Assembly (NCBI GenBank): GCA_046598345.1
Contig: JBKJIT010000004.1
Span: 265,226 to 329,225, forward strand
Length of the DNA stretch: 64,000 nt
Source of the DNA: Minisyncoccia bacterium
GTDB taxonomy: Bacteria > Patescibacteriota > Minisyncoccia > Phycocordibacterales > UBA918
Reading direction: 5' to 3'
The position numbers were made by a program, and so were the translations under genes. The first letter of the stretch is position 1, and each line of letters opens with the position of its first letter. Below the pieces are notes generated by a model that was given only the letters and a program-made list of their open reading frames with translations, was not told the DNA's origin and made no database searches. Positions 143 through 19,590 of this stretch are shown piece by piece.

Positions 143-1186
143 TCATTTTTTTGTGAGATCAATATCGTGATGAAGTGGATCCGAGTAGGTTGGCCTATGA
201 TGCAGGGGAAGGTGCTCTGAATCATCCACCATTTCTACATCAACATCAAAATACCGCTTATGGATATAGAGGGCCGAAATGATGACAAAGACTGCAACAA
301 CACCAAAAATCAGAAGTAGTGTTTTTAACGGTAGCACATAGAAAAAAGAGGTATCTTGCACGGAAGCCTGCTGGTTGTTCCCATACTCAACGTTTAGAAA
401 TGCTTTGTATTTTCCAAATAGGCCATGTACCGGTACTTCTGCGGTGAATTGATACTCTTCGCCCGGGGGAATGGCCTTCCCTTCAGCATTTACTGGAAGA
501 TTCCCCACCTCAGCACCCTTGCTGTTATAAAAAATGATCTCGCCTGAAGGAACGAGCACTTCGTCCCCGGGATTCTTTATCGTATAGAGTGCAGCTTGAT
601 TTTCACCGCCGGTGACAAACCTATCAATGATAAATCGTGAAAGTTTAAGGATTTCAAGCTTTTTATCATCGAGTGTTACTGTGAGGATTGTTCCTGGAGC
701 ACGTCCACTTGCCACCTGTGCTTCTGCTTCATCACGATTGCGTCCGTACCCAAATCCTACAAATGCATGGTACACCCCCGGTACGGGATTTGGGTTAATA
801 CGAAGCGTGAGATCCACCGTTTTACTTCCCCCAATAGGTAGATCAATGCCCATTCGACTGATTTCAATCCAGGATGTAAGCGATACCGTACGATCACTGT
901 CGACTGGAGAAAAGAATTTCTGGATAGTACCTCCGGCGTCAATTGAAATATTGTTGACCGAGGGGTACACGGTGACTGGTTGATCGCCGTTGTTTGTGAT
1001 TGTAATTACTTTCGAAATAATGTCACGAGCCTCCACTTCCGCGTCTATGACGAGTGGTGCTACCTGGTATGAAACATTGGCAAATGAAACGCTGGGCAAA
1101 AGGCTGAGAAACACGAGTGCCGTCCCAAATATGAATCCATGTGTGACTGATGCGTATCGTGTTTTCATTTTAGAAAATTGGAACAA
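143..1186 (-). CDS. DUF916/DUF3324-like (Csc/DufA-like) cell-surface protein: signal peptide, two beta-sandwich domains, C-terminal TM anchor with basic tail
   Basis: 347-aa ORF. N-terminal signal (…FLSLLPSVSFA|NVSY). 'VITITNNGDQPVTV' resembles DUF916-type adhesin domains. C-terminal TM (LLLIFGVVAVFVIISALYI) followed by HKRYFD. Paralog of 16717-17685. Start may be the internal Met (MKTRYAS, 1168), which would abut the upstream giant gene. Confidence 0.6.
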   Translation of the reverse strand: MFQFSKMKTRYASVTHGFIFGTALVFLSLLPSVSFANVSYQVAPLVIDAEVEARDIISKVITITNNGDQPVTVYPSVNNISIDAGGTIQKFFSPVDSDRTVSLTSWIEISRMGIDLPIGGSKTVDLTLRINPNPVPGVYHAFVGFGYGRNRDEAEAQVASGRAPGTILTVTLDDKKLEILKLSRFIIDRFVTGGENQAALYTIKNPGDEVLVPSGEIIFYNSKGAEVGNLPVNAEGKAIPPGEEYQFTAEVPVHGLFGKYKAFLNVEYGNNQQASVQDTSFFYVLPLKTLLLIFGVVAVFVIISALYIHKRYFDVDVEMVDDSEHLPLHHRPTYSDPLHHDIDLTKK

Positions 1187-4100
1187 TAATATACCTGATG
1201 CTCGTGCCGTACGAACCCGCCTCTTGCATTTGTCTCGCTTTAATTTTGAATACCATGTCAGTAGTTTCGTTCGTCACTGGAGCAGAGCTGTAAATAATTT
1301 CATCAAGCGTAGTGGTGCTGAGGCGCGCGTATGTATCAATCGCTGAAAAACGAGTTGAGCCACCTAAGAGTGTATCATCTCCCGCATGGTAGCCCACACA
1401 CCCTGAAAATCCTGCCTCACAGCCTGTATTCCAAGAGACGGGTGTGCCATTGGTCCCCGTAATCGGTGCAATAGTGTCGGCCGAACCACTTATAAAATCA
1501 CTATTAGTGAGCATGAAGATTTGATATCCTTCGGTTGCATTTGTTGAAACCATAAGGCGTTGTGCAGCCTCAATATCGCTATTAACAGGAAGTGAACCGA
1601 ATGGAATGCTTGTCGTACCAGAAGTTATATCCGTGGTAATACCTTCAACTGATGAGCCTGCGGTCACCCCCTGAATCGTAAAGAACAAAGAAGCACCTTC
1701 AGTAACAAGTGACGGATAGGATTCCCCTGTATTTTTTAGAACCGGTGCATCTTCTACTACGTCATATAAACGGAAATAATAGACACGATTAACACGTGGC
1801 GCAGCAGCTTGAATCGTAAATGAATATTCTGCAGCTGCACTATTTTCATGTCGAAATCCGGTTAAGACTCTTGAGGATTCATTATGCGTCCCACACCCGT
1901 TCCCCACACTCGTGACGCAACTGTCGGCATCAGAGAGCGTTGCGGTAGTAATCTTAACGTTATCGACAGCTCCTCCGTTTGCATAGCACCAGGTCGAAGT
2001 GGCTATGCAGGTCGAGGATGCAACAAGATCAGTTGATGTTGAAAAATCAGCATACTCTGAATACTGGAGCTTAAACCTTGCATTCGCTTCTGCAATGTTC
2101 TTAGTTTCTTTCACCGTTACTCTGAGCGTCAGTGCTTGCGTAATAGTGATATCAATTGGAGAGACATTTTCAAGAGCAAGGTCATCTGTAGGTGTCTCAT
2201 TCTGTTCATCATCATACCACCTCCAATTCTGTGTCTTTGGTGAAAAGCTCGCCGTGAGAAGTTGTGGATACGGGCCATACTCATCAAGTGGTGTATTATC
2301 TGACTCAACCATGCGAAAACAGTAGTACGTTTCGGCACTCGCACCATTTTGCTCAATCATCCAATCAAACTCCATTGCTTCTCCCACAGGAAGTGCGTAT
2401 GTATTCACCGCTGTATCGTTTTCTTCTTCGAGCGTTCCTGCGACATCTGACCCTGAAGGTAAATTAAGATCCCCGGGAGTCGGCGGGTCACCCGAGAGTA
2501 ATGTTCCATCGGTGGTGCCGGTAGCATTGTAGCCTCTCCATATAGTGCTCGATGCAGCGTCCCCAAGCGTAATCCAACTGCCTTCACTGATTGCTGTACA
2601 GGTTGAAATCATCTGCCCGTACTGGAGTCTAAATGACTTCGTGCCAGCAGGAAATGTCGCATTCTGTGCTTGAATAGACATGCGAATTCGAATATGCTCG
2701 CCTTCTCCGAGCGGTTCATCAGTCGTACCCAGTACGCCATCCTCTGCAAGATCTGTCCCTCCTGGTGGCCACACATCCGTCGGATCAAGTGCATTGTTAT
2801 CAACAAAGAACTGGAAGTGATGTTGACGAAGAGCAAGTCCAGCCGTAGGCCACTCCACAATCTCTGTACGATATGTCAGGTTTGCTCCTGTGTTACTTCT
2901 CCATAATTCATAGTGTGTCGTTGAAGCGATCGTAGCTCCCGCAATCGGTCGAGGGTAGTTTGTGGCTGTTCCAGCACTTCTTGAGTTAGCAAAAATTGAT
3001 GCATTCGAAATGTCAGTGAGCGTTTTTCCAATTGACACACTGATGGTTAGCGGAGCAGTACCTGCATTTGAACTTCCTGAAGAACGAGTTACATCCATTG
3101 CACCCGACGAGGTTTGAATATTCTCAATAATCCACGCAACGGAGGTTTGACCAGAAGGGGTGGTTGCCCCCGATTCCAAAAAATAAGAAACAAAGCCGAT
3201 ACTTGAAAGCCAGACCTCATGTCCAAACTCGTCTACACCGGTGAGGCCCGTGATAATTCTTTTTTGTGTATGAATAAATGTACGTGAAAGACTGCCAACT
3301 GCAGTGATTGCTTCCGTTTCCGCTGTACCTGCTGCGGTGTACGTATGCTCACTTCGTTGAGTAATCCAATTAGGACCTGTAAATTCAACGACTGCATAAC
3401 TAACGATTGTAGCGTCACTACCCGCAACGCCACGAGTGAAAACGGGTACATTACCAACTGCTCCCCATGCTGAAGTTGACTGTCCCGAATTGTAATTGGT
3501 AGCAGCGATATCCGGGTCCATTTGACCTGTAATAAATACCACAACATCACTATCGTCGCTTACTGTTGCGGTTGTGCCTGTTGCAGTTGTGGCTGTTGTA
3601 CCATACGCAAGAGAAGTTTGACTTCGGACAATCATTTCATTATCTGACCCAACTTCTCCAATAAATTCAACTATTTCCCAAGAAACACGTGAGTTACCGG
3701 TTGCTGTTGATGCTCTGTTTAGAGTTACCGACGTCATAATATTAGAAGGGTTTGAAATATATGCTGTCACATCGTCTGCATTCTGTGTGGCCCCCGCTAA
3801 TGTGCTACCTGCCCCCGTATGATGAGTATTTGTAATGCGCATAAATGCGCTTGTGGAAGCACTTGGCGCAGTATAATCGACTCCGGCCGTGAGAGTAAGC
3901 GAAGTTCCCGTAATGGTGGCCGTTCCTCGTTGAATTTCAAAATCACGATCAGGAGAGGTGGTAAGCTCTGGATACACAGTATAGGCATTAAGTTCAACTT
4001 GAGTTGTGACGAGCCTAAAACAGTACGTGATATCAAAGCCAGCGTTCGCAGTTTGTATAATTGAATGTTCAGTTTCAATATATTGCGTAGAGGTAAGCGT

Positions 4101-7100
4101 TGTCGTCGCTACTGTTGCAGAGGTTTCCTTGACAGCACTATTGGGAGTTAGAAAAGTTACGTTTTCATCAGTGACTCCTCCTGTTGCTACAGCAATATTT
4201 GTAGTGTCATTAGCTTCAGTAAGATTTGTAGAATTAAACATATCCCAGGCACCTCCAGTATCTCCGACATTGATCCATGCACTTACGGCGCCACAGGTAG
4301 TGATTTTAGCTCCATACTCAAGTGTTAAAGCTCGTGAAGCTGAAGTGACTGATCCTTCATTTGAAACTTGCATACGAAGGCGAACTGGAGTTGTCTCTGC
4401 AACATTTAAAATTGGAGTATCCTCAAGCCCTCCAGAAAGGGATGTGGCAGCCGCCTCATTACCATTATCATTTCTCCAGTGGTAATGGGTTTGTGTAAGG
4501 ACAGCACCGGCAAAAGTTGTACTTCCAGTGATATCACGTGTAATTGCCGGACTCACAGAGCCCCCTCCCGATACAACAAGATTTGTCGAAGGGCTTTGCA
4601 TAATTATATTGACCACTTCGCCATTTTGAGCGGTCGCTGTCGAATCAAGCACAGTGTAAACGCACATGGTCGCCGTAGTCGTTATACCAACCGATCCGGT
4701 AAACGTGGACGTGCCATTTGCCCCTGAAAAGCCACCAGTAGTTGTTGCCCCGAATTGAGGTTCATTTCCACCATATGATTCGCTCGAACAATCATAGGGT
4801 AACGTTGTATCAAGGTCATACTTGAGTCTAATATTACTCAGATCATTTTGTGCATCAATAGTGCCATCTTCAGCAATAGTTATGCTTGTCACATTACGCG
4901 AACCAATGTTATTTGTAACAACAAAGGCTCCTCCAACATAGAAATTTGTTGCGGGTAAATTAGTTGTTGAAATCTGAGTACCTGTTGCAGTAACAAGAAC
5001 GTCTGCAGCGATATTCGCACGCGGGATTTGATCATAGGCAAAAAGAGGATTTCCCTTATCAGTCACTCTAAAACAGTAGGTGTTTCCCTCTGCCGCACTT
5101 GTTGAAGCCATGAGTGAATACTCGAGTTCGACGTATTGAGTAGTCGTGAGTAAGATATTTGCTGTTTGTGATGATGTGTCCTTCACGGCGCCGTTCGGAC
5201 TGAGGAAAGTGGTGTTCTCGTCAGTGACGGCGCCGTTTGCTCCGAGAGCCACGTTAGTCGTATCTGCTCCATCAGTAAGGTTTGTTGTGTTGTACATATC
5301 AAATTCTCCGTTTGCTGCGCCCACGTCTGTCCAGCCTGTTGCGGCGCTACAAGCACCTGTTGTCTGTGCATACTCAAGTCGGTACTGCATTGCAGGGGTT
5401 GAGCTTCCCCCTTCATTTGAAACTTCCATACGGAGGCGTGCGGGAACTCCCTGTTGGAGAGCGGTGAGAGATGTGTCTTCATTTCCTCCTGTTTTTGAAG
5501 TTGCAGTGGTTTCTGTACCGTCATCATTTCTCCAGTGATAATGGGCTAAAGTTGGAATGTCATTGAGTACCGTCGTCGCTCCACTAATGCTTTGTGTGGT
5601 TGCAGGTCCTGCCGTACCACCCGTCACGGTTACATCGGAGGCAGGATTAGCAATTTCAATTTCAATTGTTGCATTGTTTGCCGTCGTATCAAGAATAGTG
5701 AGAACAGGATACAGACATAACGAAGTCGTAGTACTAACATTCACAGTCGTACCCGAAAATGAAGACACTCCATTTGCTCCAGAAAACCCATTGGTGTCAG
5801 TTGAACCAAATTGGGCTTCAGAACCACCATAGGATTCACTTGCACAATTATATGGTGCTGTAACATCAGTTTCATAGAACAATTTTATATTTGAAATATT
5901 AGTTGAACCATCAATAGTTCCACTTTCACTAATAGTAACTCCCGTTACATCAAGTGGTTTGTAGGTATTGTAAAGTAAAAATTTTCCACCCACGTAGAAA
6001 TTTGATGTACTCGCATTTGCTGTTGCTATCTGGGTTCCTGCTCCAGACGCATGCACTCCAGGAAATATGTCAGCAATCGTGTCTCCATAGATATCATCAT
6101 CAGTATTATCAAAATATGACACATACATGCGTTGGTCGCTTTGCAGATTAAGGTCTACTCCGTACAGATCATCCTGGCTTGTATTGACGGGCAAGCTTTC
6201 AGTACTCCAGTTCATCATAGAGCTTGTTGCCCATTTCCAATAGACATTTGCAGAACCAACTGTTCCAGCAACCGTACGCCCTGTGTATGCCACATACACA
6301 TCATCATTGGCCGCATCAAGTCCAATCGAAACATTTGTCATACCCATTGTAGTAGAAGCAGTTACGTTTGCACCGGCCGTCCAAGCATTTCCGCTGTAGC
6401 GTGCTGTTCGAATTTGGTCGTTTGTACCAAGCGTATCGTTTGTCGCTATGTATGCAAGGTGAACAGTGCTTGTTCCCGTCGTTGAACTCACTGACGCTGC
6501 CATCCCAATATCATACGTCGTGTTATCTGCCGCTGTACCGTCAATAATAGTCCATGCGGCAGACCATGCAGTATTATCCCAAATCTTTGAGCGAATATCA
6601 TCTAATGATATATCTCGGTCAATAACCATTATGTTGCCTCCCAGAAGTGGTACGAGAATATCATAGTCGTTTGCTGCATCGAGTGGAGTTGCTCCTGTCT
6701 CAGTCCAGCTTCCTGCGAGGTTGCAATTTATCGTACATTCAACAACATATGAGTCACCAGCATCATTTGATACAGCATAAATAGTCCCATCCGTGCCCCT
6801 TGTAATAGAAATAGCATTTGTACCAACTGTTGGTGCGTCAATTGTGCCACCTTGCGCTGTATTAGAAACCATACTCACCGGTGCTGTACCCATAAGCAGC
6901 GAATCACCTGAAGTATCAAGTCTATTATAGAAAATGTCATCAGCACTCGTATCGAGTGTTGCTATATGAATGCTTGAACTGGCAGCAGCCATTCCAGGAG
7001 TCCACTTGTCATACCACACCTGGATCTGAACGCAGTCAGTCTGCGCATCAACTGTTGTGGTCGACGACCACGAGGACCCTCCATTTGTTGTCTTTCGATA

Positions 7101-7367
7101 CACACATGAGCCGTTAAAATCGCGAAAAAACTTATACCCTGTCTGGTCGTCGGTAAACACTGTTTGCGAGCCCGCCCGAAGATGAGAAGTTCCTAATGAT
7201 TGAGCATCCGCATCAATCGATACCTGGGCTGCTTCTGCAGTAGGTATGGAAAATTGTAAGGTAACGATGGATTCAAGTGGGAAGCAAAAAAAATACACAA
7301 TGAGAACCATCGCAAAAAATCTGCACCCTTTTTCGAGCCTTTTAAAACCTCCGGACATCCCCTTCAT
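1170..7367 (-). CDS. giant secreted repeat protein (~2066 aa) with tandem ~330-aa modules, RW(R)NDNG…YCFR modules and conserved C-terminal module 'A' (…RYIIVPIF)
   Basis: 6.3-kb ORF. Likely true start MKGMSGG… (7367) followed by a signal/TM (FAMVLIVYFFCFPLE…AEAA). Internal tandem duplication (TSTNFYVGG…HYHWRNDDG…YCFRV occurs twice). The C-terminal ~150 aa are homologous to the C-terminus of 13902-15047. Confidence 0.85.
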   Translation of the reverse strand: MKGMSGGFKRLEKGCRFFAMVLIVYFFCFPLESIVTLQFSIPTAEAAQVSIDADAQSLGTSHLRAGSQTVFTDDQTGYKFFRDFNGSCVYRKTTNGGSSWSSTTTVDAQTDCVQIQVWYDKWTPGMAAASSSIHIATLDTSADDIFYNRLDTSGDSLLMGTAPVSMVSNTAQGGTIDAPTVGTNAISITRGTDGTIYAVSNDAGDSYVVECTINCNLAGSWTETGATPLDAANDYDILVPLLGGNIMVIDRDISLDDIRSKIWDNTAWSAAWTIIDGTAADNTTYDIGMAASVSSTTGTSTVHLAYIATNDTLGTNDQIRTARYSGNAWTAGANVTASTTMGMTNVSIGLDAANDDVYVAYTGRTVAGTVGSANVYWKWATSSMMNWSTESLPVNTSQDDLYGVDLNLQSDQRMYVSYFDNTDDDIYGDTIADIFPGVHASGAGTQIATANASTSNFYVGGKFLLYNTYKPLDVTGVTISESGTIDGSTNISNIKLFYETDVTAPYNCASESYGGSEAQFGSTDTNGFSGANGVSSFSGTTVNVSTTTSLCLYPVLTILDTTANNATIEIEIANPASDVTVTGGTAGPATTQSISGATTVLNDIPTLAHYHWRNDDGTETTATSKTGGNEDTSLTALQQGVPARLRMEVSNEGGSSTPAMQYRLEYAQTTGACSAATGWTDVGAANGEFDMYNTTNLTDGADTTNVALGANGAVTDENTTFLSPNGAVKDTSSQTANILLTTTQYVELEYSLMASTSAAEGNTYCFRVTDKGNPLFAYDQIPRANIAADVLVTATGTQISTTNLPATNFYVGGAFVVTNNIGSRNVTSITIAEDGTIDAQNDLSNIRLKYDLDTTLPYDCSSESYGGNEPQFGATTTGGFSGANGTSTFTGSVGITTTATMCVYTVLDSTATAQNGEVVNIIMQSPSTNLVVSGGGSVSPAITRDITGSTTFAGAVLTQTHYHWRNDNGNEAAATSLSGGLEDTPILNVAETTPVRLRMQVSNEGSVTSASRALTLEYGAKITTCGAVSAWINVGDTGGAWDMFNSTNLTEANDTTNIAVATGGVTDENVTFLTPNSAVKETSATVATTTLTSTQYIETEHSIIQTANAGFDITYCFRLVTTQVELNAYTVYPELTTSPDRDFEIQRGTATITGTSLTLTAGVDYTAPSASTSAFMRITNTHHTGAGSTLAGATQNADDVTAYISNPSNIMTSVTLNRASTATGNSRVSWEIVEFIGEVGSDNEMIVRSQTSLAYGTTATTATGTTATVSDDSDVVVFITGQMDPDIAATNYNSGQSTSAWGAVGNVPVFTRGVAGSDATIVSYAVVEFTGPNWITQRSEHTYTAAGTAETEAITAVGSLSRTFIHTQKRIITGLTGVDEFGHEVWLSSIGFVSYFLESGATTPSGQTSVAWIIENIQTSSGAMDVTRSSGSSNAGTAPLTISVSIGKTLTDISNASIFANSRSAGTATNYPRPIAGATIASTTHYELWRSNTGANLTYRTEIVEWPTAGLALRQHHFQFFVDNNALDPTDVWPPGGTDLAEDGVLGTTDEPLGEGEHIRIRMSIQAQNATFPAGTKSFRLQYGQMISTCTAISEGSWITLGDAASSTIWRGYNATGTTDGTLLSGDPPTPGDLNLPSGSDVAGTLEEENDTAVNTYALPVGEAMEFDWMIEQNGASAETYYCFRMVESDNTPLDEYGPYPQLLTASFSPKTQNWRWYDDEQNETPTDDLALENVSPIDITITQALTLRVTVKETKNIAEANARFKLQYSEYADFSTSTDLVASSTCIATSTWCYANGGAVDNVKITTATLSDADSCVTSVGNGCGTHNESSRVLTGFRHENSAAAEYSFTIQAAAPRVNRVYYFRLYDVVEDAPVLKNTGESYPSLVTEGASLFFTIQGVTAGSSVEGITTDITSGTTSIPFGSLPVNSDIEAAQRLMVSTNATEGYQIFMLTNSDFISGSADTIAPITGTNGTPVSWNTGCEAGFSGCVGYHAGDDTLLGGSTRFSAIDTYARLSTTTLDEIIYSSAPVTNETTDMVFKIKARQMQEAGSYGTSIRYIIVPIF

Positions 7368-7377
7368 TATCGCGCAC

Positions 7378-10101: not shown

Positions 10102-10103
10102 AG

Positions 10104-10760: not shown

Positions 10761-10764
10761 ATGA

Positions 10765-12480
10765 CTATTCTACTATATGCTCAACATCAATAATTTCTTT
10801 TCTAATTTTTGCACGAGCACTTGCAACATCCTCTTCGATTTGTTCAATGAATGTGCTCTCTGCGCGTGTGAACTTCCCCTTACGCGATTCTTTAAGTTCA
10901 GCTACATTCGCATGAAGATTCGTAAGGATCGTGTCTAGCTCAGACTTTACAACGTCCTCAATCTCATGCGTCTCCGTTTGCACTTTTTTACGCCAGAGCG
11001 AAAGCCTATGGTATGAATACCAGCAACCGAATACAAGTAGAACAAGAAGAGCAAGAAGTGGCACAATGACTGAAAGGACACTTACCATAAAGGATCCAAC
11101 GCGCAGGTATCCAGGTTCCTCAACAATAATCCGAAGCGTATCCGACGGCTCACTGACTGCACCAAATGAGTCTGTGGCGACTGCAGAAATATCGTACACG
11201 CCAACCTCGAGTCTTGAATCCGGAATAAAGGTAAAGACACCGCTATCAATTGCTGTGACAATATAGGTCTCCGTTACACCGTTAGAACGAGTAAGTGATA
11301 TTTCAACTGTAGCATTTGGTCTCGTTGTACCCTTAAGTGCTGGAATAACTTCTGGACTTATTCGCTCGGGATATTCTGTAAAAAAAGGTTTCTCAAATGA
11401 CGAAACATCAAATGAGTACGTGGCAGCACGACTATTTCCAGCGCTATCAAACGCCTCCACGATTACTGTGTGTCGACCTGGAGGAAGTATGGGAAGCGTG
11501 TACTGTTTCGTACCCTTTTCATCTGCATATTCAATAAACTCACCTCCATCTATTTGAATGCGATACTTTAAGATCGGCGAGACGTCGGTAATGGTAAATA
11601 CGAGCGTTCGCGTGGGAGTATCTAGATTCTCACGTGCTATCTCAGCGATAGTGAATGCTGAGGGTGCCTCAGTATCAACCCCCAATCTTACGTGCGCGAC
11701 CTTACCCCAACCTTCAGCATTTTTAAATTGAATGTGGAAATACGAGACTCCTTGAGGAAGATCAGTGAGTGTCTTTTTTCGCAATGCCTCCTCGTACACT
11801 ATCGTCGGAATTGTTCCCGCAGTATTGTCGAGAAGCGTGCGTACCGCAGTCACATCACTCGGTACTCCCCAGGTGAGCTCTGCAGTCGTTTCCTTGTACC
11901 ATGCAGTCTGATCTGGATGCGTGGTCGATGTTACTACAGGTGCTTTCGGTGTGTTCGCTGGAGCAATATACTCTGGTTCGGGGTTTTCAGCTTGCGCTGA
12001 AATAGTGTAGGCTCCTCCATTCATTGCGGTGAGAACATTTGTGCCTAATCCATCTGCAGCAAGTACGGATCCACTTTTAAAAGTAAGTTTTGGATTTCCT
12101 GCCGCTGTTGGCCGAAGCGTAATGGAAAGAATAGTACCGCCACTGCCCGTATATCCGGTTGGAGAGCCGCCACCAAACGAGATTGTTCCCGCTGAATTGG
12201 AAAAACTCGGCTCCTCGGTCCATAGATTAAAAATTGAACCTGCGCGAGATACACTCACGACTGTTAGTTCGCGCGGATTAAAGCTAAGCTGTCCGTCAGC
12301 TGCGTTAACTGGCTTGCCTTGTGTATTAAGCACTACGTTAGCAGTAAATGTGCTGCCTGTCGTATACACGCCTGTGTCAGGACTTACGCGAAGAGTTGCT
12401 GCATATCCGATATGGATAATAGAAAAAAAGGCAACAATCGAAATTAAAGTACTTACAACTAGGGTGCGAATATTATTCAT
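10765..12480 (-). CDS. cohesin-domain surface protein with Ig-like domains, C-terminal TM and cytoplasmic coiled-coil tail
   Basis: Signal peptide, then a cohesin-like N-domain (LRVSPDTG…NAADGQLSFNPRELTVVSVSRAGSIFNLWTEEPSFSNSAGTISFGGGSPTGY). TM (VSVLSVIVPLLALLVLLVFGCW) followed by a charged helical tail. Paralog of 44243-45769 and 12473-13567. Confidence 0.75.
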   Translation of the reverse strand: MNNIRTLVVSTLISIVAFFSIIHIGYAATLRVSPDTGVYTTGSTFTANVVLNTQGKPVNAADGQLSFNPRELTVVSVSRAGSIFNLWTEEPSFSNSAGTISFGGGSPTGYTGSGGTILSITLRPTAAGNPKLTFKSGSVLAADGLGTNVLTAMNGGAYTISAQAENPEPEYIAPANTPKAPVVTSTTHPDQTAWYKETTAELTWGVPSDVTAVRTLLDNTAGTIPTIVYEEALRKKTLTDLPQGVSYFHIQFKNAEGWGKVAHVRLGVDTEAPSAFTIAEIARENLDTPTRTLVFTITDVSPILKYRIQIDGGEFIEYADEKGTKQYTLPILPPGRHTVIVEAFDSAGNSRAATYSFDVSSFEKPFFTEYPERISPEVIPALKGTTRPNATVEISLTRSNGVTETYIVTAIDSGVFTFIPDSRLEVGVYDISAVATDSFGAVSEPSDTLRIIVEEPGYLRVGSFMVSVLSVIVPLLALLVLLVFGCWYSYHRLSLWRKKVQTETHEIEDVVKSELDTILTNLHANVAELKESRKGKFTRAESTFIEQIEEDVASARAKIRKEIIDVEHIVE

Positions 12481-13567
12481 ACAGTTGCTCCTCTGGTGCT
12501 TTTTTTATGAGTGCCTTTTTCCGGCGTATGAGAATATATGCTAGTACAAGAACGACAAGAAGTGCTCCCCCAACACTAACGAAGAGCGAAGTTAAGCGCT
12601 CCCTGGAAATTGTACGGAGTGCCTCTTCAGGGACGAGAACTGCGATGGTCTCGTTACCAGCTTTGTCTATGGCCTTTACGCGAATTGTACTATTTAGAGT
12701 CTGATCTTTAAGAACATACGGACTCTCTGTTTCTACCCAAGGAGCATCCGCTCCACCCCATTTGAACGCATAGAAATCTTCGAGTGGTTCCTCGATGACT
12801 TCATAGTGATCGATTCCAGATTGCTTGTCTTGCGAGTTGAAGGAAATAAAATATCGGCCGCTAAACGCATTTTCTTCTCGAGCAAGTGAAATAACAAAAT
12901 CTGATGGACGAGCAGAATCTTGAGCAACTAGATCCTTCCAAGAGTCTTCCGTGGTTGCACCTGCATTTGGGAGCAAGACTATCGTGGCATCCTGCAAGCG
13001 TAAGTTGCTCTGGGTTCCTCTACCGTCATGGAGAAGCACTTGAGAAATACCGTCAACCCAAATTTTTCCACTCGCAGTGTTCCCTCCTGTGCCGACACTA
13101 AAACCTGGTGACCGAAACATCAGCTCGGCAATGATGTTTGTAAGGCTAGGATCTCCCGCAATCCTGCCACAGTAACCACCAGGAAGTCCTCCCGCAAAAG
13201 TAATCGTATGATTCGTCTCGTCGATCACTGGATCTTCAACCCAAATATTTAATATTGAATTTCCTCGTGAGACATCAACTGCGCGAATTGACGGATCATA
13301 CTTTATGACTATATCCACTGCATTGATGCACTCATCTTCGTCCGTATCGATGCGTAGCCCAATCGTTGCGGTATCTCCCCGACTCACCTGTAATTCTGAT
13401 GGGTCAAAATATAAAAGCGCTGCATTACTGGTGCTTACAATGCCAAAAAAAACTAATGCACTTACTATGCACGCATTCGCAAGCGAAAAAAGAGAGCGAA
13501 AAATACTCATACCGAATGCACATAGTATAGCAGTGGAGCACCTACCCTGACGCATAGCTACCCACAT
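12473..13567 (-). CDS. cohesin-domain surface protein with C-terminal TM anchor
   Basis: N-terminal signal/TM. Cohesin-like (…QVSRGDTATIGLRIDTDEDECINAVDIVIKYDPSIRAVDVSRGNSILNIWVEDP…TFAGGLPGGYCG). C-terminal TM (LFVSVGGALLVVLVLAYILI) followed by RRKKALIKK. Overlaps the downstream gene by 8 nt. Confidence 0.7.
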   Translation of the reverse strand: MWVAMRQGRCSTAILCAFGMSIFRSLFSLANACIVSALVFFGIVSTSNAALLYFDPSELQVSRGDTATIGLRIDTDEDECINAVDIVIKYDPSIRAVDVSRGNSILNIWVEDPVIDETNHTITFAGGLPGGYCGRIAGDPSLTNIIAELMFRSPGFSVGTGGNTASGKIWVDGISQVLLHDGRGTQSNLRLQDATIVLLPNAGATTEDSWKDLVAQDSARPSDFVISLAREENAFSGRYFISFNSQDKQSGIDHYEVIEEPLEDFYAFKWGGADAPWVETESPYVLKDQTLNSTIRVKAIDKAGNETIAVLVPEEALRTISRERLTSLFVSVGGALLVVLVLAYILIRRKKALIKKAPEEQLYE

Positions 13568-13901: not shown

Positions 13902-15047
13902 CTAGAACATCGGTGTTGCTATGTAGCGAAGTGTCGTCGTATAGTCGTCACCCGCTTCTTGCAATGCCGAGATTTGGACCTGGTAACCAATTCGTGCCCT
14001 ACCAAAACCGTTAGTAGTGCCGTCAGCTGGCCCCGTGTGACCCATAATCACAATCGGTGTTGTACTGCCAGATGCCCACTCGTTTGCATCGAATTCATCG
14101 ATACCAGCACGTGAGGTTGTTGCATCTTCTGAGGTGATCCCCCAGTGGCCGTATGTTGCCGTATCAGTGATGACCGCGCCTGGCGCCTGCCACGCTGTTG
14201 GCGTGTAGGTGTTTGCTCCATCGATGAATCCATCAATAGTTGCTCCAGTCGTTGACTGCAATGCACCGGTTTGCTCAACAGTTACGCTGTAGCCGTTTGA
14301 GGCATTTGTCGTAACTGAAAGGTCCTGTGCAAGCGTTTTCGATACGTTAATGTTTAGCGTTCCAAATGGAAGCGAGACACTCGTACTCGTTGCAGATGTT
14401 GTTGTAGGACTGCTGTTCACACTTGAACTTGCAGCCACTCCTGATACGGTAAACGTAAGAGAAGTATCAACACTTGCTGTCATGGTCACTTGATCAATGA
14501 TTGCTACACGAATTTGTCCGTCATCCGGTGACGTACCGTCTATATCAATTGGATACGAGGTCGTTGCCGAAGGATTCACAATCTGTGTATTACCTGCACC
14601 ACCAGCTGCTGCATGACTACCAATCTCAATTGAGAATGGGGTACTCGATGCCTGGCCGACGTTACTGGGTGAAGTGAAAGTGATCGTTTGACTCGATGTA
14701 CTTACACCCCAAATTCCAGATCCGTTTGTAGGAGCAATTGTTTGCTCTGTACCAGATGCAGTGAGATCAAAATCTTCAACACCAAGTGCTGGGATTGTGA
14801 ACTGTGCTGGGAAGGTAATAGTGATTGTTTGACCTGCAGTCATACCATTTGGCGATGTAAACGCGACGGTATGATTGGATGCTACGCTAGGCGCAGAATT
14901 GGACAAGGTATCGCTTGCGCTTGTGATTGATGACGCTTCCGCAGTGCGGAAGATTGTTGGAAGTCCAGTAGTCCAAAGGAACACTGCAAGTCCAACTATC
15001 ATCGCGACAGCCTGGAGAGTTCGCACGGTCGTTGCCGTGTGAATCAT
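13902..15047 (-). CDS. surface protein carrying C-terminal module 'A' (…TLRYIATPMF), the small paralog of the 2091-aa giant's C-terminus
   Basis: 381-aa ORF with N-terminal signal-anchor (AVAMIVGLAVFLWTTGLP). C-terminal ~150 aa align with the giant 1170-7367 C-terminus (SLPFGTLNINVS ~ SIPFGSLPVNSD; QEAGDDYTTTLRYIATPMF ~ QEAGSYGTSIRYIIVPIF). Confidence 0.75.
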   Translation of the reverse strand: MIHTATTVRTLQAVAMIVGLAVFLWTTGLPTIFRTAEASSITSASDTLSNSAPSVASNHTVAFTSPNGMTAGQTITITFPAQFTIPALGVEDFDLTASGTEQTIAPTNGSGIWGVSTSSQTITFTSPSNVGQASSTPFSIEIGSHAAAGGAGNTQIVNPSATTSYPIDIDGTSPDDGQIRVAIIDQVTMTASVDTSLTFTVSGVAASSSVNSSPTTTSATSTSVSLPFGTLNINVSKTLAQDLSVTTNASNGYSVTVEQTGALQSTTGATIDGFIDGANTYTPTAWQAPGAVITDTATYGHWGITSEDATTSRAGIDEFDANEWASGSTTPIVIMGHTGPADGTTNGFGRARIGYQVQISALQEAGDDYTTTLRYIATPMF

Positions 15048-15585: not shown

Positions 15586-16713
15586 TCAACCGGTCCAGTT
15601 GAAGAGAAGGATCGAAAAGTCTTCCAGTCCTACTTTTGCATTTTGATTTATGTCCGCAGGTGGATTAGAGTTGCCGCCAGGTGTACCCCACCAAAAGATA
15701 AGGATTGAGAAGTCAATAAGATTTACCTTTCCGTCACGATTGAGATCAGAATTACTTACTGCTTTCCCTTCTACTCCCACGAAGAGTGAAATTGCAGTGC
15801 CATACGTGCTTTCTGTTTTCAACGCGCCTGTACCTGTGATGAAACGTGCCTTTGCAGTATGTGTGTCGATTGATACTTCTCCCGTATCAAAAGCAACACT
15901 CCAATTACCAGAAGTGTCGGAGGTCGCTGTAAGTATTTTACGATTATTATCAATTGAAACTTCGACTGGCACACTTGGTACCGTTTGACCCGAAAGCGTA
16001 ATGGTGTCCCCCGGGTTTGGAGAGGCATTTGAAGCGCGAATCGTTGGCGGAATTAAAATCCCATTTACACTTGTTACTGCACCCTGCGTGACATCAAATG
16101 TTGTGTTGAAGGTAGCAGAACGTGTTCCCTGCGAATCATTTGCCCAGAAACTAAACGATGCTGCACCTGGTTCTGCATCAGTATTAAATAAAAACTCTCC
16201 TTTACTATTCGTACGCACACTTCCTATTGAATCGCCGTCCATAAGTATATTCACAGTTGCATTCGGATATGCCTTTCCTTGCAGAGTGACCTGCGTGTCA
16301 CCAAGAGCCTCGTTACTTCCACCTGAAGCAGAACTACCTCCACCTCCAGAGCTTCCGCCACCAGCATCTGCACGCTCTTCAGTACAGTCAGCAGCACAAA
16401 AGTCATCATCCTCATTGTTCCCATCATCACACTCTTCAGCATAAATTGTTTGCAAAACAGCATCTCCGCAATAGGGAGCCCAACGGCACACATCCGTACA
16501 CTGTCTCCCTAAAATTGTCGTGCTGTATGCACCCGTATCAGTTGGGACGTCGCAATCTTCTCCTGAGTTAACAATAACGTCTCCACAGATACTAATGAGA
16601 AGACTCGTGGTCGCAATCAGAGTCTGCCCATGCACAACACCAGCAAAGAAAAAAGGGAGACACAGTAAAACAAAAAAGTAACTTTTCATGAGATTACGAG
16701 TATTCAAAGCCAT
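15586..16713 (-). CDS. secreted dockerin-domain protein with N-terminal Myxococcus-type cysteine-rich repeat, Gly/Ser linker and Ig-like domains
   Basis: Signal peptide. 'CGDVIVNSGEDCD…CGDAVLQTIYAEECDDGNNEDDDFCAADC' matches the CxxGxGxxxxGEECDDGN cysteine-rich repeat. C-terminal double dockerin (DLNRDGKVNLIDFSILIFWWG…DINQNAKVGLEDFSILLFNWTG). Paralogous C-terminus to 46486-48339. Confidence 0.75.
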   Translation of the reverse strand: MALNTRNLMKSYFFVLLCLPFFFAGVVHGQTLIATTSLLISICGDVIVNSGEDCDVPTDTGAYSTTILGRQCTDVCRWAPYCGDAVLQTIYAEECDDGNNEDDDFCAADCTEERADAGGGSSGGGGSSASGGSNEALGDTQVTLQGKAYPNATVNILMDGDSIGSVRTNSKGEFLFNTDAEPGAASFSFWANDSQGTRSATFNTTFDVTQGAVTSVNGILIPPTIRASNASPNPGDTITLSGQTVPSVPVEVSIDNNRKILTATSDTSGNWSVAFDTGEVSIDTHTAKARFITGTGALKTESTYGTAISLFVGVEGKAVSNSDLNRDGKVNLIDFSILIFWWGTPGGNSNPPADINQNAKVGLEDFSILLFNWTG

Positions 16714-16716
16714 ACA

Positions 16717-17685
16717 CTACGCTCGTCTCTTTCGAGAACGGACGGTGCGCACAATCACATAACCGAGAAGGCTTGCAAAGAAAAGAATTGGAATTATTAA
16801 AGAAAGCTTGTGTGGCAGAGAGAGTCCCGTGAAGCCAAAGCCTGCAGTTTGCAATGTGCCGTACGGCAAAATACTTACATTAACTTCCCCACTCAGTTTT
16901 ACTTCCTCGTCATTTTTAATTTCGAAACGTGCTAGGTAACTTCCAGATGGAAGCCTCGTTGGAAGTTCTGCAAAGACAGTTTCAGTTTTAAAGGGATTTA
17001 CAGTAGCAATCTTTCCTTTTTTGTGGGTTTCTTCGAGAAGCACTTTTCCGGATGCGTCATAAATTCTAAATACCACGTCACTTGGTGCTACGGGGATATT
17101 ACCCAAATTTTCAAGAAGCATTTCGAATCGGATCCTTCCTGGGAAATAAAGCCATCCTACTTTATGTCCTTCATTCAAATCAGAGATCCCAATTTTTCGT
17201 ACCTTGAAATCTTTAATTTCTTTATCAATAACACTAAGCTTTACATCTATCTGAGCGCCTAATGAAATATTTACTGCACCACCTGCAACCTGATCATCAG
17301 GAGTTCCTGTCTTTATACGAATGTTTCCAGTGTAGTCTCTAAAATCAGCCTTATCAGGAACCTGAACTCTCACTGTCATGGGAACTTTCTGAGCGCCCTG
17401 AGGAAGTAAAAATTCATTTCCCTCTACAATAGTAAACCAATCATTGACTTCAGGAACATCAATACTAATAGTTGCTTTGAGAGCAGTTGTCGGATCACTT
17501 CGTACTAAATAAATAATTTGCTCATACTGGGAGTTTCTAGTAAGGCTGGAATTTGTAACATAGGGAGGTGTAATACCGAAGCCAGCAAAAACTGTGTGCG
17601 CAAGGGAAAAGAGCGCTACAAATGTTAAAAAAAGAGAGCTAAGAAATCTCATTATATAAACCGACCACCAAAATAATGGCGACAA
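16717..17685 (-). CDS. DUF916/DUF3324-like (Csc/DufA-like) cell-surface protein, paralog of 143-1186
   Basis: 322-aa ORF. Signal (…LFSLAHTVFA|GFG), two beta-sandwich domains, C-terminal TM (IIPILFFASLLGYVIV) followed by RTVRSRKRRA. Same architecture as 143-1186. Lies immediately downstream of the module-B protein 17764-19590. Confidence 0.6.
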   Translation of the reverse strand: MSPLFWWSVYIMRFLSSLFLTFVALFSLAHTVFAGFGITPPYVTNSSLTRNSQYEQIIYLVRSDPTTALKATISIDVPEVNDWFTIVEGNEFLLPQGAQKVPMTVRVQVPDKADFRDYTGNIRIKTGTPDDQVAGGAVNISLGAQIDVKLSVIDKEIKDFKVRKIGISDLNEGHKVGWLYFPGRIRFEMLLENLGNIPVAPSDVVFRIYDASGKVLLEETHKKGKIATVNPFKTETVFAELPTRLPSGSYLARFEIKNDEEVKLSGEVNVSILPYGTLQTAGFGFTGLSLPHKLSLIIPILFFASLLGYVIVRTVRSRKRRA

Positions 17686-17717
17686 TTAATTATCAAACGG
17701 TTAAGCCATAAACGCAA

Positions 17718-17743: not shown

Positions 17744-17763
17744 AGAACATAGATTTTAACTAA

Positions 17764-19590
17764 CTACCAATTTGCGGATTCACCAACAATTGCTGTAAAG
17801 GTATTCTCACCTGTGTAGTCACCTGCAAAGGTAATCGTGCCTGGAACTCGGATTCCCCAATACGCATTGTTTGTTGCCTGTGAGGAAGTTGCAGTTGACT
17901 TCGGAACATTGATTTCAATTTCCTGTGGGGTGGTAGATGAAAGTGCAGTTCCCTGAGCATAGGTTACTGTACTAGTAGCAAAGACCTGTTCAGATTCTGG
18001 AATGGTGGAGGTAGACAAACTCGGACAAAGAGTAGAGCCAGTATATGTTGTACACATTGACTCACCAGTTACATCCTTATCAAGCCCGACGTTCCCAGTG
18101 GCAGCAATCGTAGTGGTTGCAGTAATTGGATCCATTTGCTGACCCGGTTCGAGTGATCCATATGGAATTGATAGTGTATTGAGCGCGAAAGCAAGGAAAC
18201 TAGTTACTTCAACTCCGATTGAGCCCTCTGCCAAGCTTCCTGTGGCAGAATTATCATCCACTGCTCGGACCTGTGCAAGCCAGTTTTGTGTTGGATACTG
18301 CGTGGTTGTTGCTGTACCGTCAGTTGGATCTGCAATGTACCAAAGCGGGAATGTACAATTCCACATTTTGTCAGTATCTGATGCACCCGTGCATGATGTT
18401 GTTGATGCTGTGCATGAAATGTTCCAAGTTGTCGTTGGTACACTACTGACATAACAATTGTTTGCATTGTACGAACTTGTAGGAGTACATGTTGAGGAGC
18501 TAACGCCGGATCGATACAAGCTGAGCTGATAACTTACTACCTCACTCGAGGATGCTGCATTGATGCAACTATTATTATCTGCGGCTGTAAACTGCAGAGT
18601 AAAGCCAGTTGTCTGCCCTGCTTCAGTCGTAAGTATGATATCAGTACCTCCATTAATTGAGATCGTTGAACTAGCAACAGATGGTGCAACGTTACTTACA
18701 GTGAGAACTGAGTCAGTGCCTTGCGATCCACCTGAAGCTTCAAATCCATGGTTGTCTATAACATAGCCGAACGCGCCGTAGTTTTGATCTTGAGTTGGAA
18801 TAACAATGGTATATGTCGCAGTTGCGTTTGCAGCAACAGTTATAGTTGTGCTTCCAAGCAGCGTACCAGTACAAGAATCAGTAGATGTACTAAATCCTGC
18901 TGTTGCACACACAATCAGTTTTACCCTATCAGCTGTACCAGAAGTGTCTGAATCTGAAGATGTGCTGTTAAAAATAACTAGCTGGCCAGGATCAGCGGGT
19001 GAATTGTCAGTGAAAATAGTAAATGTTGGTCGATGATTTACTTCAAATGGTGAGGAGTTAGTGGCGTTTGTTCCTTGCGTTGAAATAGTGTTACAACGTG
19101 GAGTTCCCGCGTTTCCGTCACAGATAAATGCAAACCAAGGGTTTGATTCAGCCCAACTGGCATTTGTAGTCGTTGCTGAAACTGCCGCTACACCGCTTGT
19201 TGTTGAAGCAGAAACTGCCCATTGCGTACCGCCACCACATGCGGGTGCAGCACCAGAGTTTGGTGTTGGAGAAGCATTTGTGCTGCAAATAAGAAGATAA
19301 TATCGCTCCCCGTTTGAATCAGTACCAATAGCCGTCCAAGAAACTACATCCCCCGCATTCGTAGGATTTGTTGCAGATGATTCAACAACTTCTGTGGTAG
19401 TGGCTGTCCATAGGGGAGGTGTGTTGAGAACTGTAACTGAAGTAGTAGCCTGACTTTGAGCGTCTACTTGAAGGAGTTCTTGGGAGCCAAGATTAAAAAC
19501 GAATGCAATCGCAAATACGAAAACCCCGATGATCGTGGTGTACACAGTGATTTTACCTGCCGTACGTAAATTATCTGTGTTATAAGACAT
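17764..19590 (-). CDS. N-terminally anchored Thr/Ser-rich surface protein carrying C-terminal module 'B' (…YWGIRVP…), the small paralog of the 5587-aa giant's C-terminus
   Basis: 608-aa ORF with TM anchor (ITVYTTIIGVFVFAIAFVF). C-terminal ~250 aa align with giant 27418-44181 (YRSGV…NNCY…ADPTD…; SIPYGSLEP ~ TIGYGALEV; YWGIRVPG ~ YWGIAIPSG). Confidence 0.75.
   Translation of the reverse strand: MSYNTDNLRTAGKITVYTTIIGVFVFAIAFVFNLGSQELLQVDAQSQATTSVTVLNTPPLWTATTTEVVESSATNPTNAGDVVSWTAIGTDSNGERYYLLICSTNASPTPNSGAAPACGGGTQWAVSASTTSGVAAVSATTTNASWAESNPWFAFICDGNAGTPRCNTISTQGTNATNSSPFEVNHRPTFTIFTDNSPADPGQLVIFNSTSSDSDTSGTADRVKLIVCATAGFSTSTDSCTGTLLGSTTITVAANATATYTIVIPTQDQNYGAFGYVIDNHGFEASGGSQGTDSVLTVSNVAPSVASSTISINGGTDIILTTEAGQTTGFTLQFTAADNNSCINAASSSEVVSYQLSLYRSGVSSSTCTPTSSYNANNCYVSSVPTTTWNISCTASTTSCTGASDTDKMWNCTFPLWYIADPTDGTATTTQYPTQNWLAQVRAVDDNSATGSLAEGSIGVEVTSFLAFALNTLSIPYGSLEPGQQMDPITATTTIAATGNVGLDKDVTGESMCTTYTGSTLCPSLSTSTIPESEQVFATSTVTYAQGTALSSTTPQEIEINVPKSTATSSQATNNAYWGIRVPGTITFAGDYTGENTFTAIVGESANW

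What the first reader, a model, noticed from the sequence alone, without database searches (positions are those of the whole stretch)
143..19590. Csc/WxL-like surface complex built around giant proteins: conserved C-terminal modules A and B paired with DUF916-like membrane proteins
Seen in sequence. The 2091-aa giant and the 381-aa protein (13902-15047) share a ~150-aa C-terminal module 'A' (S[IL]PFG[ST]L… QEAG.Y.T.[IL]RYI..P[IM]F-COOH). The 5587-aa giant and the 608-aa protein (17764-19590) share a ~250-aa C-terminal module 'B' (…YRSGV..S.C…NNCY…ADPTD…[IL][GP]YG[AS]LE…YWGI[AR][IV]P…). A and B both begin with the [ST][IL]P[FY]G[SA]L signature, so they are distant relatives. Each module-bearing gene is followed by a paralogous signal-peptide / two-beta-sandwich / C-terminal-TM protein (1186-143 overlapping the giant's stop by 17 nt; 17685-16717) whose N-domain (…ITITNNGDQPVTV…) looks DUF916-like. 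Established knowledge: in Firmicutes, Csc/WxL loci combine DUF916/DUF3324 membrane proteins (CscA/DufA) with two classes of proteins (CscB, CscC) bearing a C-terminal WxL domain that docks non-covalently onto the wall. The gene order, the two module classes, and the '[LV]P.F.FG' start and 'Y.G.[IL].[WY].[IL]…P' end of the modules are all reminiscent of that system. Inference: here the anchoring module is appended to giant adhesin-like proteins (6 and 17 kb genes), with Trp replaced by Tyr in the terminal motif, in what appears to be a Patescibacteria-like genome. That would be an undescribed variant of the system and a candidate host- or surface-attachment apparatus.
Basis: partly seen in the sequence, partly recalled or inferred. 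Interest (0 to 1): 0.85.

Follow-up and report, generated by a model that had tools for sequence, protein, structure and literature searches.

The report
Pam-pilus-like surface system with giant proteins
A conserved gene cluster in an ultra-small (CPR/Patescibacteria) bacterium pairs surface proteins, two of them giants, that end in a pilin-like tail domain with membrane-anchored chaperone-like partners; it looks like a distant, unannotated relative of the recently described Pam pili and of the WxL surface clusters of Firmicutes.

Summary
Module A ends both the 2091-aa giant and the 381-aa protein. Module B ends both the 5587-aa giant and the 608-aa protein. Both matches are far beyond chance. 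The two "DUF916-like" proteins are remote homologues of each other (profile-profile 93%), and a third paralogue is cut by the window start.

Pairing is strongly conserved. A module-A ORF lies directly upstream of the p347 homologue in 49 of 51 testable species. A module-B ORF lies upstream of the p322 homologue in 58 of 58 metagenome loci.

The WxL reading is only partly right:
- No WxL (PF13731) hit appears in 113 family members or the window proteins, and there is no dual W-x-L motif.
- 62 of 80 family members give weak PF06030 hits.
- Module A instead matches NCBIfam CPR_Pam_pilin_C end to end, below its cutoff.

Most likely this is an usher-less system related to Pam pili. Membrane-anchored partners would bind incomplete C-terminal domains by strand complementation. 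That mechanism is inferred, not shown. A–B homology is unproven, and module B is an orphan.

Verdict: new variant of a known kind.

The parts
1..146 (-). N-terminus of a second WxLIP/PapD-like paralogue (chapA2), cut by the window start. Its ATG (146-144) overlaps the p347 stop codon (ATGA).
   Evidence: Translation MTSLWFRIF...SVTPPLFQLSINPGEIW matches the 431-436-aa proteins that follow p347 homologues in L001/L003. Present downstream in 54/54 species loci. 32/39 hit PF06030 and 22/39 carry a C-terminal LytR_C domain.
143..1186 (-). p347 (chapA1): signal peptide, two beta-sandwich domains, C-terminal TM helix. WxLIP/PapD-like membrane-anchored partner. Probable start is the ATG at 1168.
1170..7445 (-). 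Giant A (2091 aa), secreted. No Pfam domain at E<=1e-3.
   Evidence: Homologues of 1700-2470 aa sit in the same position in L001 and L004-L006.
1173..1694 (-). Module A of the giant (aa ~1918-2091): linker strand 'SLFFTIQGV' plus a C-terminal pilin-like domain ending at the protein's C-terminus.
   Evidence: NF058581 CPR_Pam_pilin_C E 1.6e-6, 28.3 bits, profile positions 3-148 of 148. p381-family HMM E 3.5e-18.
7378..9174 (-). p598, secreted beta-propeller-repeat protein. Conserved member of the cluster.
   Evidence: NCBIfam repeat hits. Syntenic in L001 and L004-L006.
9361..10101 (-). p246, cohesin-like domain plus dockerin/EF-hand.
   Evidence: Syntenic.
10104..10760 (-). p218, membrane-anchored helical protein of unknown role. 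Conserved in the cluster.
10765..12480 (-). p571, cohesin + Big_13 + TM + coiled cytoplasmic tail.
   Evidence: Syntenic.
12473..13567 (-). p364, cohesin-like domain plus C-terminal TM helix. Paralogue of p571.
13902..15047 (-). p381: signal peptide, Ig-like N-terminal domain, linker strand, module A. Candidate shaft subunit. Very conserved family (64-78% identity over 120 listed clusters; 1181 hits).
   Evidence: AF2 model. Module A lies at nt 13905-14465. NF058581 E 3.9e-4 for p381; 17/42 family members hit it, best E 1.3e-7.
15586..16713 (-). p375, Ig-like domains plus a C-terminal dockerin.
   Evidence: Syntenic.
16717..17685 (-). p322 (chapB): signal peptide, ectodomain collinear with p347, C-terminal TM helix. 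Remote paralogue of p347. Probable start is the ATG at 17652.
   Evidence: hhalign of ectodomains: 93% probability, E 2.5e-7 against the p347 family; 95%, E 3.9e-8 against chapA2. 1480 homologues.
17764..19590 (-). p608: secreted, Cys-rich Ig-like domains plus module B. The C-terminal subdomain is aa 441-608 (nt 17767-18270).
   Evidence: A module-B ORF lies directly upstream of the p322 homologue in 58/58 loci.
19663..20877 (-). p404, MacB/FtsX-type ABC permease. Conserved in the cluster.
   Evidence: Pfam MacB_PCD + FtsX on its syntenic homologues.
24054..25457 (-). p467, ABC ATPase partner of p404.
   Evidence: PF00005 on its syntenic homologues.
25694..27241 (-). p515, secreted protein of FN3-type repeats, directly downstream of giant B.
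27418..44181 (-). Giant B (5587 aa), secreted. Only DUF2341 and one Ig domain are recognised. It ends in module B (shared region nt 27421-28278).
   Evidence: A 6158-aa homologue sits in the same position in L005.

Best explanation
This is a conserved ~45-kb cell-surface assembly locus of Paceibacteria/Kaiserbacteria-type CPR bacteria. It most likely works like the Pam pilus system, a chaperone-usher-like pathway without an usher.

Proposed mechanism, all steps inferred:
1. The module-bearing proteins are exported by Sec.
2. Their extreme C-terminal module is an incomplete Ig-like 'acceptor' domain.
3. That domain is captured at the membrane by the signal-peptide / two-beta-sandwich / C-terminal-TM proteins encoded right after them (p347 plus its tandem paralogue for the module-A giant; p322 for module-B p608). 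The partner donates a beta-strand.
4. The partners then either hand the subunit on for donor-strand exchange, or keep it tethered to the envelope. In the first case p381 and p608 would act as repeating shaft subunits and the 2091- and 5587-aa giants as distal or cargo subunits.

Shown here: the modules, their strictly C-terminal position, the fold of p347, the remote family links, and the conserved gene pairing.

Not shown: strand complementation, polymerisation, and which subunit sits where.
For: 1. Module A matches NCBIfam NF058581 'Pam pilus system pilin subunit' over the whole profile and ends at the protein C-terminus. Values: g2091 E 1.6e-6, p381 E 3.9e-4; 17/42 family members, best E 1.3e-7, and it is the only recurrent family.
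2. p381 has the PamA/B build: an Ig-like N-terminal domain, a conserved linker strand (SLTFTVSGV, shared with the giants) and a C-terminal domain. As reported for Pam pilins (paper), the linker (0.85) and the last 20 aa (0.92) are more conserved than the N-terminal domain (0.69).
3. p347 has the PamC/D build described in the paper: signal peptide, two beta-domains, C-terminal TM helix.
5. For WxLIP itself, AlphaFold2 predicts insertion of a DUF916 strand into the WxL domain (PMC10599100).
6. Tandem partner genes occur, as with PamC/PamD: chapA1-chapA2, with ATGA start/stop overlap.
7. Pairing is conserved. A module-A ORF lies directly upstream in 49 of 51 testable GTDB species loci, and the second paralogue downstream in 54/54. 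A module-B ORF lies upstream of p322 homologues in 58/58 loci.
8. Modules sit at the very C-terminus: 129/135 module-B proteins end within 14 residues of the domain, and nearly all module-A ORFs end with it. This fits the chaperone-usher way of gripping a subunit's C-terminal strand (established knowledge).
Against: - The Pam pilin hit is well below the curated cutoff (28 and 20 bits against 55).
- Module B matches no known family at all.
- A-B homology is not significant.
- The p381 model gave only generic Ig-fold matches in the PDB, with no pilin of any donor-strand system near the top.
- No complex could be modelled, and no Pam protein sequence was available for direct comparison.
- The giants are not more conserved in the module than elsewhere, which gives no hint of a variable 'tip'.
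- The cluster also carries cohesin/dockerin proteins and a MacB-type ABC transporter, which the Pam model does not explain.
Confidence: 0.55

Rival explanations
1. One reading: a Csc/WxL-type complex. The C-terminal modules are WxL-like domains that dock non-covalently on peptidoglycan. The DUF916-like membrane proteins (WxLIP) stabilise them there. The giants are displayed as single molecules, and no polymer forms.
For: - WxLIP1 is the top structural match of p347.
- PF06030 is the commonest Pfam hit in both partner families.
- The cluster build is the same as described for WxL clusters: small module protein, large module protein, WxLIP-like protein (PMC10599100).
- Most longer chapA2 paralogues carry a LytR_C domain, which is typical of wall-associated proteins.
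Against: - No PF13731 hit at E<=1 in the window modules or in 113 family members.
- No conserved pair of W-x-L motifs.
- No PF11797 hit for p347 or p322.
- The p322 family has no PF06030 hit.
- Module A hits a pilin model instead.
- The extreme conservation and abundance of p381 fit a repeating structural subunit better than an accessory anchor.
Confidence: 0.2
2. The two-domain membrane proteins are not chaperones. They are PamR/RbmA-like terminators or anchors that simply tether finished subunits or fibres to the cytoplasmic membrane. Folding and any polymerisation of the modules would be chaperone-independent.
For: - The Pam paper assigns an RbmA-like protein with two FnIII domains and a TM helix (PamR) to this role.
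- chapA2 has extra membrane and LytR_C parts suited to anchoring.
Against: - Fimbrial chaperones and WxLIP score as well or better.
- Three paralogues per locus, each tightly coupled to a specific module gene, resembles dedicated chaperone-subunit pairs.
Confidence: 0.12
3. There is no physical coupling. These are merely co-located secreted Ig-fold proteins, and the shared tails are ordinary domain shuffling among surface proteins.
For: - Ig-like folds are ubiquitous.
- The structure searches for p381 were non-specific.
Against: - Adjacency is conserved in 49/51 and 58/58 loci across lineages down to ~37% identity.
- Start and stop codons overlap or abut.
- The modules are always at the extreme C-terminus.
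Confidence: 0.05

Closest known systems
Pam pilus system of CPR bacteria (Ca. Mycosynbacter amalyticus; Troman et al., bioRxiv 10.64898/2026.03.03.709456; NCBIfam NF058581)
   Same: - CPR host.
[quoted passage not shown]
- Module A matches the Pam pilin C-domain model end to end.
- Partner proteins have a signal peptide, two beta-domains and a C-terminal TM helix, and occur as a tandem pair.
- No usher.
   Different: - The match is far below the curated cutoff.
[quoted passage not shown]
- The pilin-like domain is fused to 2091-aa and (as orphan module B) 5587-aa proteins.
- There is a second module class with its own partner.
- The neighbourhood holds cohesin/dockerin proteins and a MacB-type ABC transporter rather than ATP synthase genes.
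- No PamT- or PamR-type gene was identified.
WxL / WxLIP (Csc) clusters of Firmicutes (Hassan et al. 2023, PMC10599100; PMC9772566)
   Same: - Small and large proteins share a strictly C-terminal module.
- A membrane-anchored partner has two Ig domains and a TM helix.
- Strand insertion of partner into module is predicted for WxLIP.
   Different: - No PF13731 or PF11797 match.
- No dual W-x-L motif.
- Different phylum.
- Large proteins are up to 5587 aa, against 500-1000 aa.
- The small protein has an extra N-terminal Ig domain and is far more conserved.
Chaperone-usher pili of Gram-negative bacteria (Pap/Fim, CFA/I, Csu, Ecp)
   Same: - The subunit's interaction domain lies at the extreme C-terminus.
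- A large adhesin-plus-pilin-domain arrangement is reminiscent of FimH/PapG tips.
   Different: - No usher and no outer membrane.
- The partner is membrane-anchored.
- There is no significant sequence similarity.
- The donor strand, if any, would be an internal linker rather than an N-terminal extension.
Cohesin-dockerin surface scaffolds (cellulosome-type)
   Same: Three cohesin+TM proteins and three dockerin proteins are interleaved with the module genes. One dockerin protein shares the p381 N-terminal domain.
   Different: - No carbohydrate-active enzymes.
- The role here is unknown, and it may be a second, parallel way of mounting proteins on the same envelope.

Membership tests
WxL / Csc cluster | C-terminal WxL domain (Pfam PF13731) on at least two proteins of the cluster | tested here: not met
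   No PF13731 hit at E<=1 for the four window modules, 42 module-A family members or 71 module-B family members.
WxL / Csc cluster | Two conserved Trp-x-Leu motifs in the domain (PMC9772566) | tested here: not met
   Columns conserved in both module-A classes contain one Trp that is not followed by x-Leu. Module B has a single conserved W-G-I plus a terminal Trp.
WxL / Csc cluster | WxLIP first domain, DUF916 (PF06030) | tested here: inconclusive
   [not shown]
WxL / Csc cluster | WxLIP second domain, DUF3324 (PF11797) | tested here: not met
   Not hit by p347 or p322 at E<=1. Not among the 25 most frequent families.
WxL / Csc cluster | Partner has a signal peptide and a C-terminal TM helix; cluster has >=1 partner and >=2 module proteins within four genes | tested here: met
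   p347 model has helix 287-318. p608-p322-p375-p381 are adjacent. This meets the architecture only, counting modules A and B in place of WxL.
WxL / Csc cluster | Non-covalent binding of the domain to peptidoglycan | not testable with these tools
   Needs biochemistry.
Pam pilus system | [quoted passage not shown] | tested here: inconclusive
   g2091 scores 28.3 bits, E 1.6e-6. p381 scores 20.5 bits, E 3.9e-4. Both cover profile positions 3-5 to 148 of 148. 17/42 family members hit it, best 1.3e-7. All scores seen for the window proteins are below the cutoff. The module-B family gives 0/71.
Pam pilus system | Pilin architecture: beta-sandwich N-terminal domain, linker strand, C-terminal domain | tested here: met
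   p381 AF2 model: strands in 59-182 (pLDDT 80-92), a low-confidence break at 187-192, strand 197-203, then the C-terminal domain to residue 379. The linker is conserved in small and giant classes. The model is monomeric, so donation of the strand is not shown.
Pam pilus system | PapD/FimC-like chaperones with a C-terminal TM helix, encoded in the operon | tested here: met
   [not shown]
Pam pilus system | Assembly into a filament by donor-strand exchange | not testable with these tools
   No multimer prediction was available. Needs cryo-EM or AlphaFold-Multimer.
Pam pilus system | PamT-type tip (C-terminal domain only) and PamR-type anchor | not tested
   [not shown]
Classical chaperone-usher pathway | Outer-membrane usher | tested here: not met
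   No usher family appeared among the Pfam hits of the 30 window ORFs or segments scanned. As general background (not tested here), CPR bacteria are regarded as monoderm. ORFs that were not scanned could hide one.

The most novel reading that the evidence does not exclude
The Firmicute WxL-WxLIP clusters, the CPR Pam pili and this locus would be one homologous superfamily of usher-less, membrane-anchored-chaperone, strand-complementation systems for single-membrane envelopes. In Paceibacteria-type CPR the pilin-type acceptor domain would have been fused to 2- and 5.6-thousand-residue proteins, so that whole giant proteins are mounted as the distal units of a p381/p608 fibre used for host contact. 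The same reading would recast WxL 'wall anchors' as pilus-like assemblies.
Probability: 0.3. Interest if true: 0.8.

Novelty: new variant of a known kind. Interest (0 to 1): 0.62.

Why it matters
CPR bacteria are thought to depend on contact with host cells, yet their surface machinery is almost entirely unannotated.

This locus is large and conserved in order across every related genome examined. It is present in at least 54 species-level genomes, and the protein searches returned between several hundred and about 1,500 relatives per family.

If the proposed mechanism is right:
- It extends the newly described Pam pilus principle to another major CPR class.
- It shows how giant proteins could be attached to such a fibre.
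- It gives names and testable partners to a ~17-gene cluster.
- It suggests that WxL/WxLIP clusters of lactic acid bacteria and enterococci work by the same strand-complementation logic.

All of this can be tested directly with multimer prediction and cryo-EM.

Tried and rejected
- The afdb50 library, which would have held WxL and DUF916 models, was not available.
- PDB sequence searches with single sequences and family profiles of p381 and p347 found nothing significant. Pam pilins are therefore either not in that copy or too distant.
- BLASTP of p347 against p322 found nothing. Only profiles built from 54 and 80 diverse homologues showed the relation.
- hhalign of module A against module B, with three different A profiles, aligned only the 'slPFGtL / IxYGxL' start and the 'Q.AG.Y...Y' / 'sG.Y.G.NT' end (E 0.003-0.03, probability <=10%). 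I do not accept A-B homology as shown.
- I tested whether the giant's module is more conserved than the rest, as expected for a variable adhesin on a constant anchor. It is not.
- I considered type IV pilins because of a weak Tad hit on p608 (E 0.1) and the nearby PilM/PilC/PilB genes. I rejected this: there is no class III signal peptide, and the hit is not recurrent in the family.
- A WS6 locus (L060) looks like a canonical two-pilin plus two-partner operon.
- Direct comparison with PamA-D sequences could not be done because they were not retrievable with the tools.
Full report
**1. What is there**

The minus strand of window 1-44181 carries one long run of genes. In transcription order they are:
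- giant B (g5587, 27418-44181)
- FN3 protein p515
- ABC ATPase p467
- three genes not found at this position in relatives (p428, p289 and, on the plus strand, p209)
- MacB/FtsX permease p404
- p608
- p322
- dockerin protein p375
- p381
- cohesin+TM proteins p364 and p571
- p218
- cohesin/dockerin protein p246
- propeller protein p598
- giant A (g2091, 1170-7445)
- p347
- the first 48 codons of a further gene, cut by the window start

GC content is 41-50% with no break. Homologues are named Kaiserbacteria, Paceibacterota, Minisyncoccia or Parcubacteria.

**2. The shared tails are real**

- BLASTP gives g2091 1947-2091 against p381 226-381 at 30% identity, E 1.5e-5. It gives g5587 5302-5585 against p608 280-601 at 30% identity, E 8e-18.
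- Family profiles raise these to E 3.5e-18 and 6.5e-36. They find exactly two copies of each module in the window.
- An alignment of 42 small and 42 giant module-A proteins keeps a common core. It runs from a linker strand (L..F...G), through FG, TN..GY and W, to Q.AG.Y....Y...P two residues before the C-terminus.
- The last ~168 aa of module B lie at the very end of 129 of 135 family proteins. These include proteins of 940-2600 aa.
- A and B are not demonstrably related. Three profile-profile runs aligned only the first and last motifs (E 0.003-0.03, probability <=10%).

**3. The partner proteins**

- The AlphaFold2 model of p347 (pLDDT 85) has a signal helix, two beta-sandwiches (40-172 and 181-284) and a TM helix at 287-318.
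- By sequence, PF06030 (DUF916/WxLIP_PGBD) is the most frequent Pfam hit of the family: 30/41 members, best E 2.4e-5. p347 itself scores 16.5 bits against a cutoff of 27.3.
- Other hits are to PapD-like-fold families (DUF1573, ASH) and, in NCBIfam, choice-of-anchor D and a fimbrial chaperone model (6/41).
- p322 has no BLASTP similarity to p347 and no PF06030 hits. Ectodomain-only profiles from 54 and 80 diverse homologues nevertheless align at 93% probability, E 2.5e-7.
- The truncated gene at 1-146 is a third paralogue (chapA2). It aligns with the p347 family at 99.9% probability. Of 39 members, 32 hit PF06030 and 22 carry a LytR_C domain after a second TM segment.
- The giant's stop, the p347 ATG and the chapA2 ATG abut or overlap (TAAAATG; ATGA). 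This implies coupled translation.

**4. The pairing is conserved**

- Four other genomes keep the whole gene order over more than 20 kb.
- In 54 species-level loci found with the p347 family, the second paralogue follows in all 54.
- Of the 51 loci with upstream sequence, 49 have an ORF ending in module A directly upstream. One of these is frameshifted.
- The two exceptions are a genome lacking the giant at that position, and a WS6 genome at 21% identity. The WS6 locus has two 405-aa pilin-like genes there instead.
- In 58 of 58 metagenome loci with upstream sequence, the ORF before the p322 homologue ends in module B. In 44 of 46, a p381-like gene follows within 2.5 kb.

**5. Which known system**

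There is no PF13731 hit at E<=1 for any window module or for 113 family members. There is no conserved W-x-L pair and no PF11797 hit.
- Module A instead matches NCBIfam NF058581, 'Pam pilus system pilin subunit', over the whole 148-position profile and up to the C-terminal residue. Values are g2091 E 1.6e-6 and p381 E 3.9e-4. In the family, 17/42 members hit it, best E 1.3e-7, and it is the only recurrent family. All scores seen for the window proteins are below the curated 55 bits.
- The model comes from a 2026 preprint (10.64898/2026.03.03.709456). That paper makes four points:
  - Filaments of a Saccharimonadia parasite are built from PamA and PamB.
  - Each pilin has a beta-sandwich N-terminal domain, a donated linker strand and a truncated Ig-like C-terminal domain.
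  - Assembly uses donor-strand exchange with FimC/PapD-like chaperones that carry a C-terminal TM helix (PamC, PamD).
  - The system has no usher.
- p381 has the Pam pilin architecture. As the paper reports for Pam pilins, its linker and C-terminal end are more conserved than its N-terminal domain (0.85 and 0.92 against 0.69).
- The paper does not mention WxL, DUF916 or giant proteins.
- The WxL literature, independently, describes small and large proteins with a strictly C-terminal module plus WxLIP. It also predicts insertion of a DUF916 strand into WxL (PMC10599100; PMC9772566).
- The three descriptions therefore converge on one mechanism. The present locus sits between them: a Pam-like module with a WxLIP-like partner.

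**6. Mechanism and its limits**

I consider a Pam-like, usher-less strand-complementation system the most likely reading (0.55).
- Shown: the domains, the fold of one partner, the remote family links, the C-terminal position, the coupling and the synteny.
- Inferred: that the partners bind the modules by strand insertion, that p381 and p608 polymerise, and that the giants are distal units.
- Against: sub-threshold scores, an orphan module B, non-specific structural matches for p381, and the inability to separate a chaperone role from an RbmA/PamR-like anchor role.
- The giants show uniform 50-60% identity over their last 960 aa and almost no known domains. 'Adhesin' is therefore a guess.
- The rivals, with their probabilities, are a WxL-type wall anchor without polymerisation (0.2), partners acting as anchors only (0.12), and no physical coupling (0.05).

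**7. Verdict**

- Novelty is a new variant of a known kind. The variant features are pilin-type tails on giant proteins, a second orphan module class with its own partner, a different CPR class, and an associated cohesin-dockerin set and MacB-type transporter.
- Interest is 0.62.

Noticed in passing
window 9361-13567, 15586-16713, 44243-48429: Three cohesin+TM proteins (p364, p571 and the 508-aa ORF at 44243-45769) and three dockerin proteins (p246, p375 and the 647-aa ORF at 46486-48429) are interleaved with the module genes. This looks like a membrane-anchored cohesin-dockerin scaffold with no carbohydrate-active enzymes. The 647-aa dockerin protein (aa 81-257) shares the N-terminal Ig domain of p381 (E 2e-17), so the same domain seems to be mounted in two different ways.
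   Followed up: partly
window 19663-20877 and 24054-25457: A MacB/FtsX-type permease and its ABC ATPase lie between giant B and p608. They keep that position in three other genomes (L004-L006). This could be a mechanotransducing transporter serving the surface system.
   Followed up: partly
window 51874-58052: Type IV pilus genes (PilM, PilC/T2SSF, PilB/T2SSE) sit a few kb upstream of the locus, next to HAMP, histidine-kinase and FIST sensor genes. A second, unrelated filament system is therefore in the same neighbourhood.
   Followed up: no
window 14886-15047 (p381 aa 1-54): The first 54 residues of the p381 family, including a long signal peptide predicted as two helices, are unusually conserved (mean column identity 0.87, against 0.69 for the N-terminal domain). 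p381 has no cysteine and is 30% Ser+Thr. The conserved leader could be a special sorting signal or an N-terminal strand with a role in assembly.
   Followed up: partly
L007-L059, ORF after the p347 homologue (e.g. L027:3818-5644): Most longer versions of the tandem paralogue (560-620 aa) have a second TM segment and a C-terminal LytR_C domain (22/39, best E 2.5e-13). This hints at a link to the cell wall.
   Followed up: partly
L060:452-4906 (candidate division WS6, LBWK01000001.1): This is a compact operon of two 405-aa pilin-like proteins ending ...DYTEDITFIMVPRY and ...AGSYSEEVHFICGAYY, followed by two partner-like membrane proteins. It looks like a canonical Pam-type operon and a possible bridge to the giant-bearing locus. 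Similarity to module A was too weak to call (10 bits).
   Followed up: partly
L003/L014 ORF at L003:8506-9993: This 495-aa ORF joins a LexA/S24-peptidase-like N-terminus to the last ~370 aa of a giant-A homologue. It is probably a truncation or an assembly chimera rather than a real fusion.
   Followed up: no
window 21060-24013: p209 (plus strand), p289 (its sequence suggests a trypsin-like protease; not scanned against any family library) and p428 interrupt the otherwise conserved gene order. They are absent from this position in L004-L006, so they are a lineage-specific insertion.
   Followed up: no
loci L007-L055, record titles: Many MAGs carrying close homologues with identical synteny are titled 'uncultured Candidatus Saccharibacteria bacterium', while their nearest relatives are titled Kaiserbacteria or Paceibacterota. 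A few are titled Acidimicrobiales, Patiriisocius or Azotimanducaceae. These are probably generic labels or mis-binned contigs, so taxonomic range should not be read from the titles.
   Followed up: no
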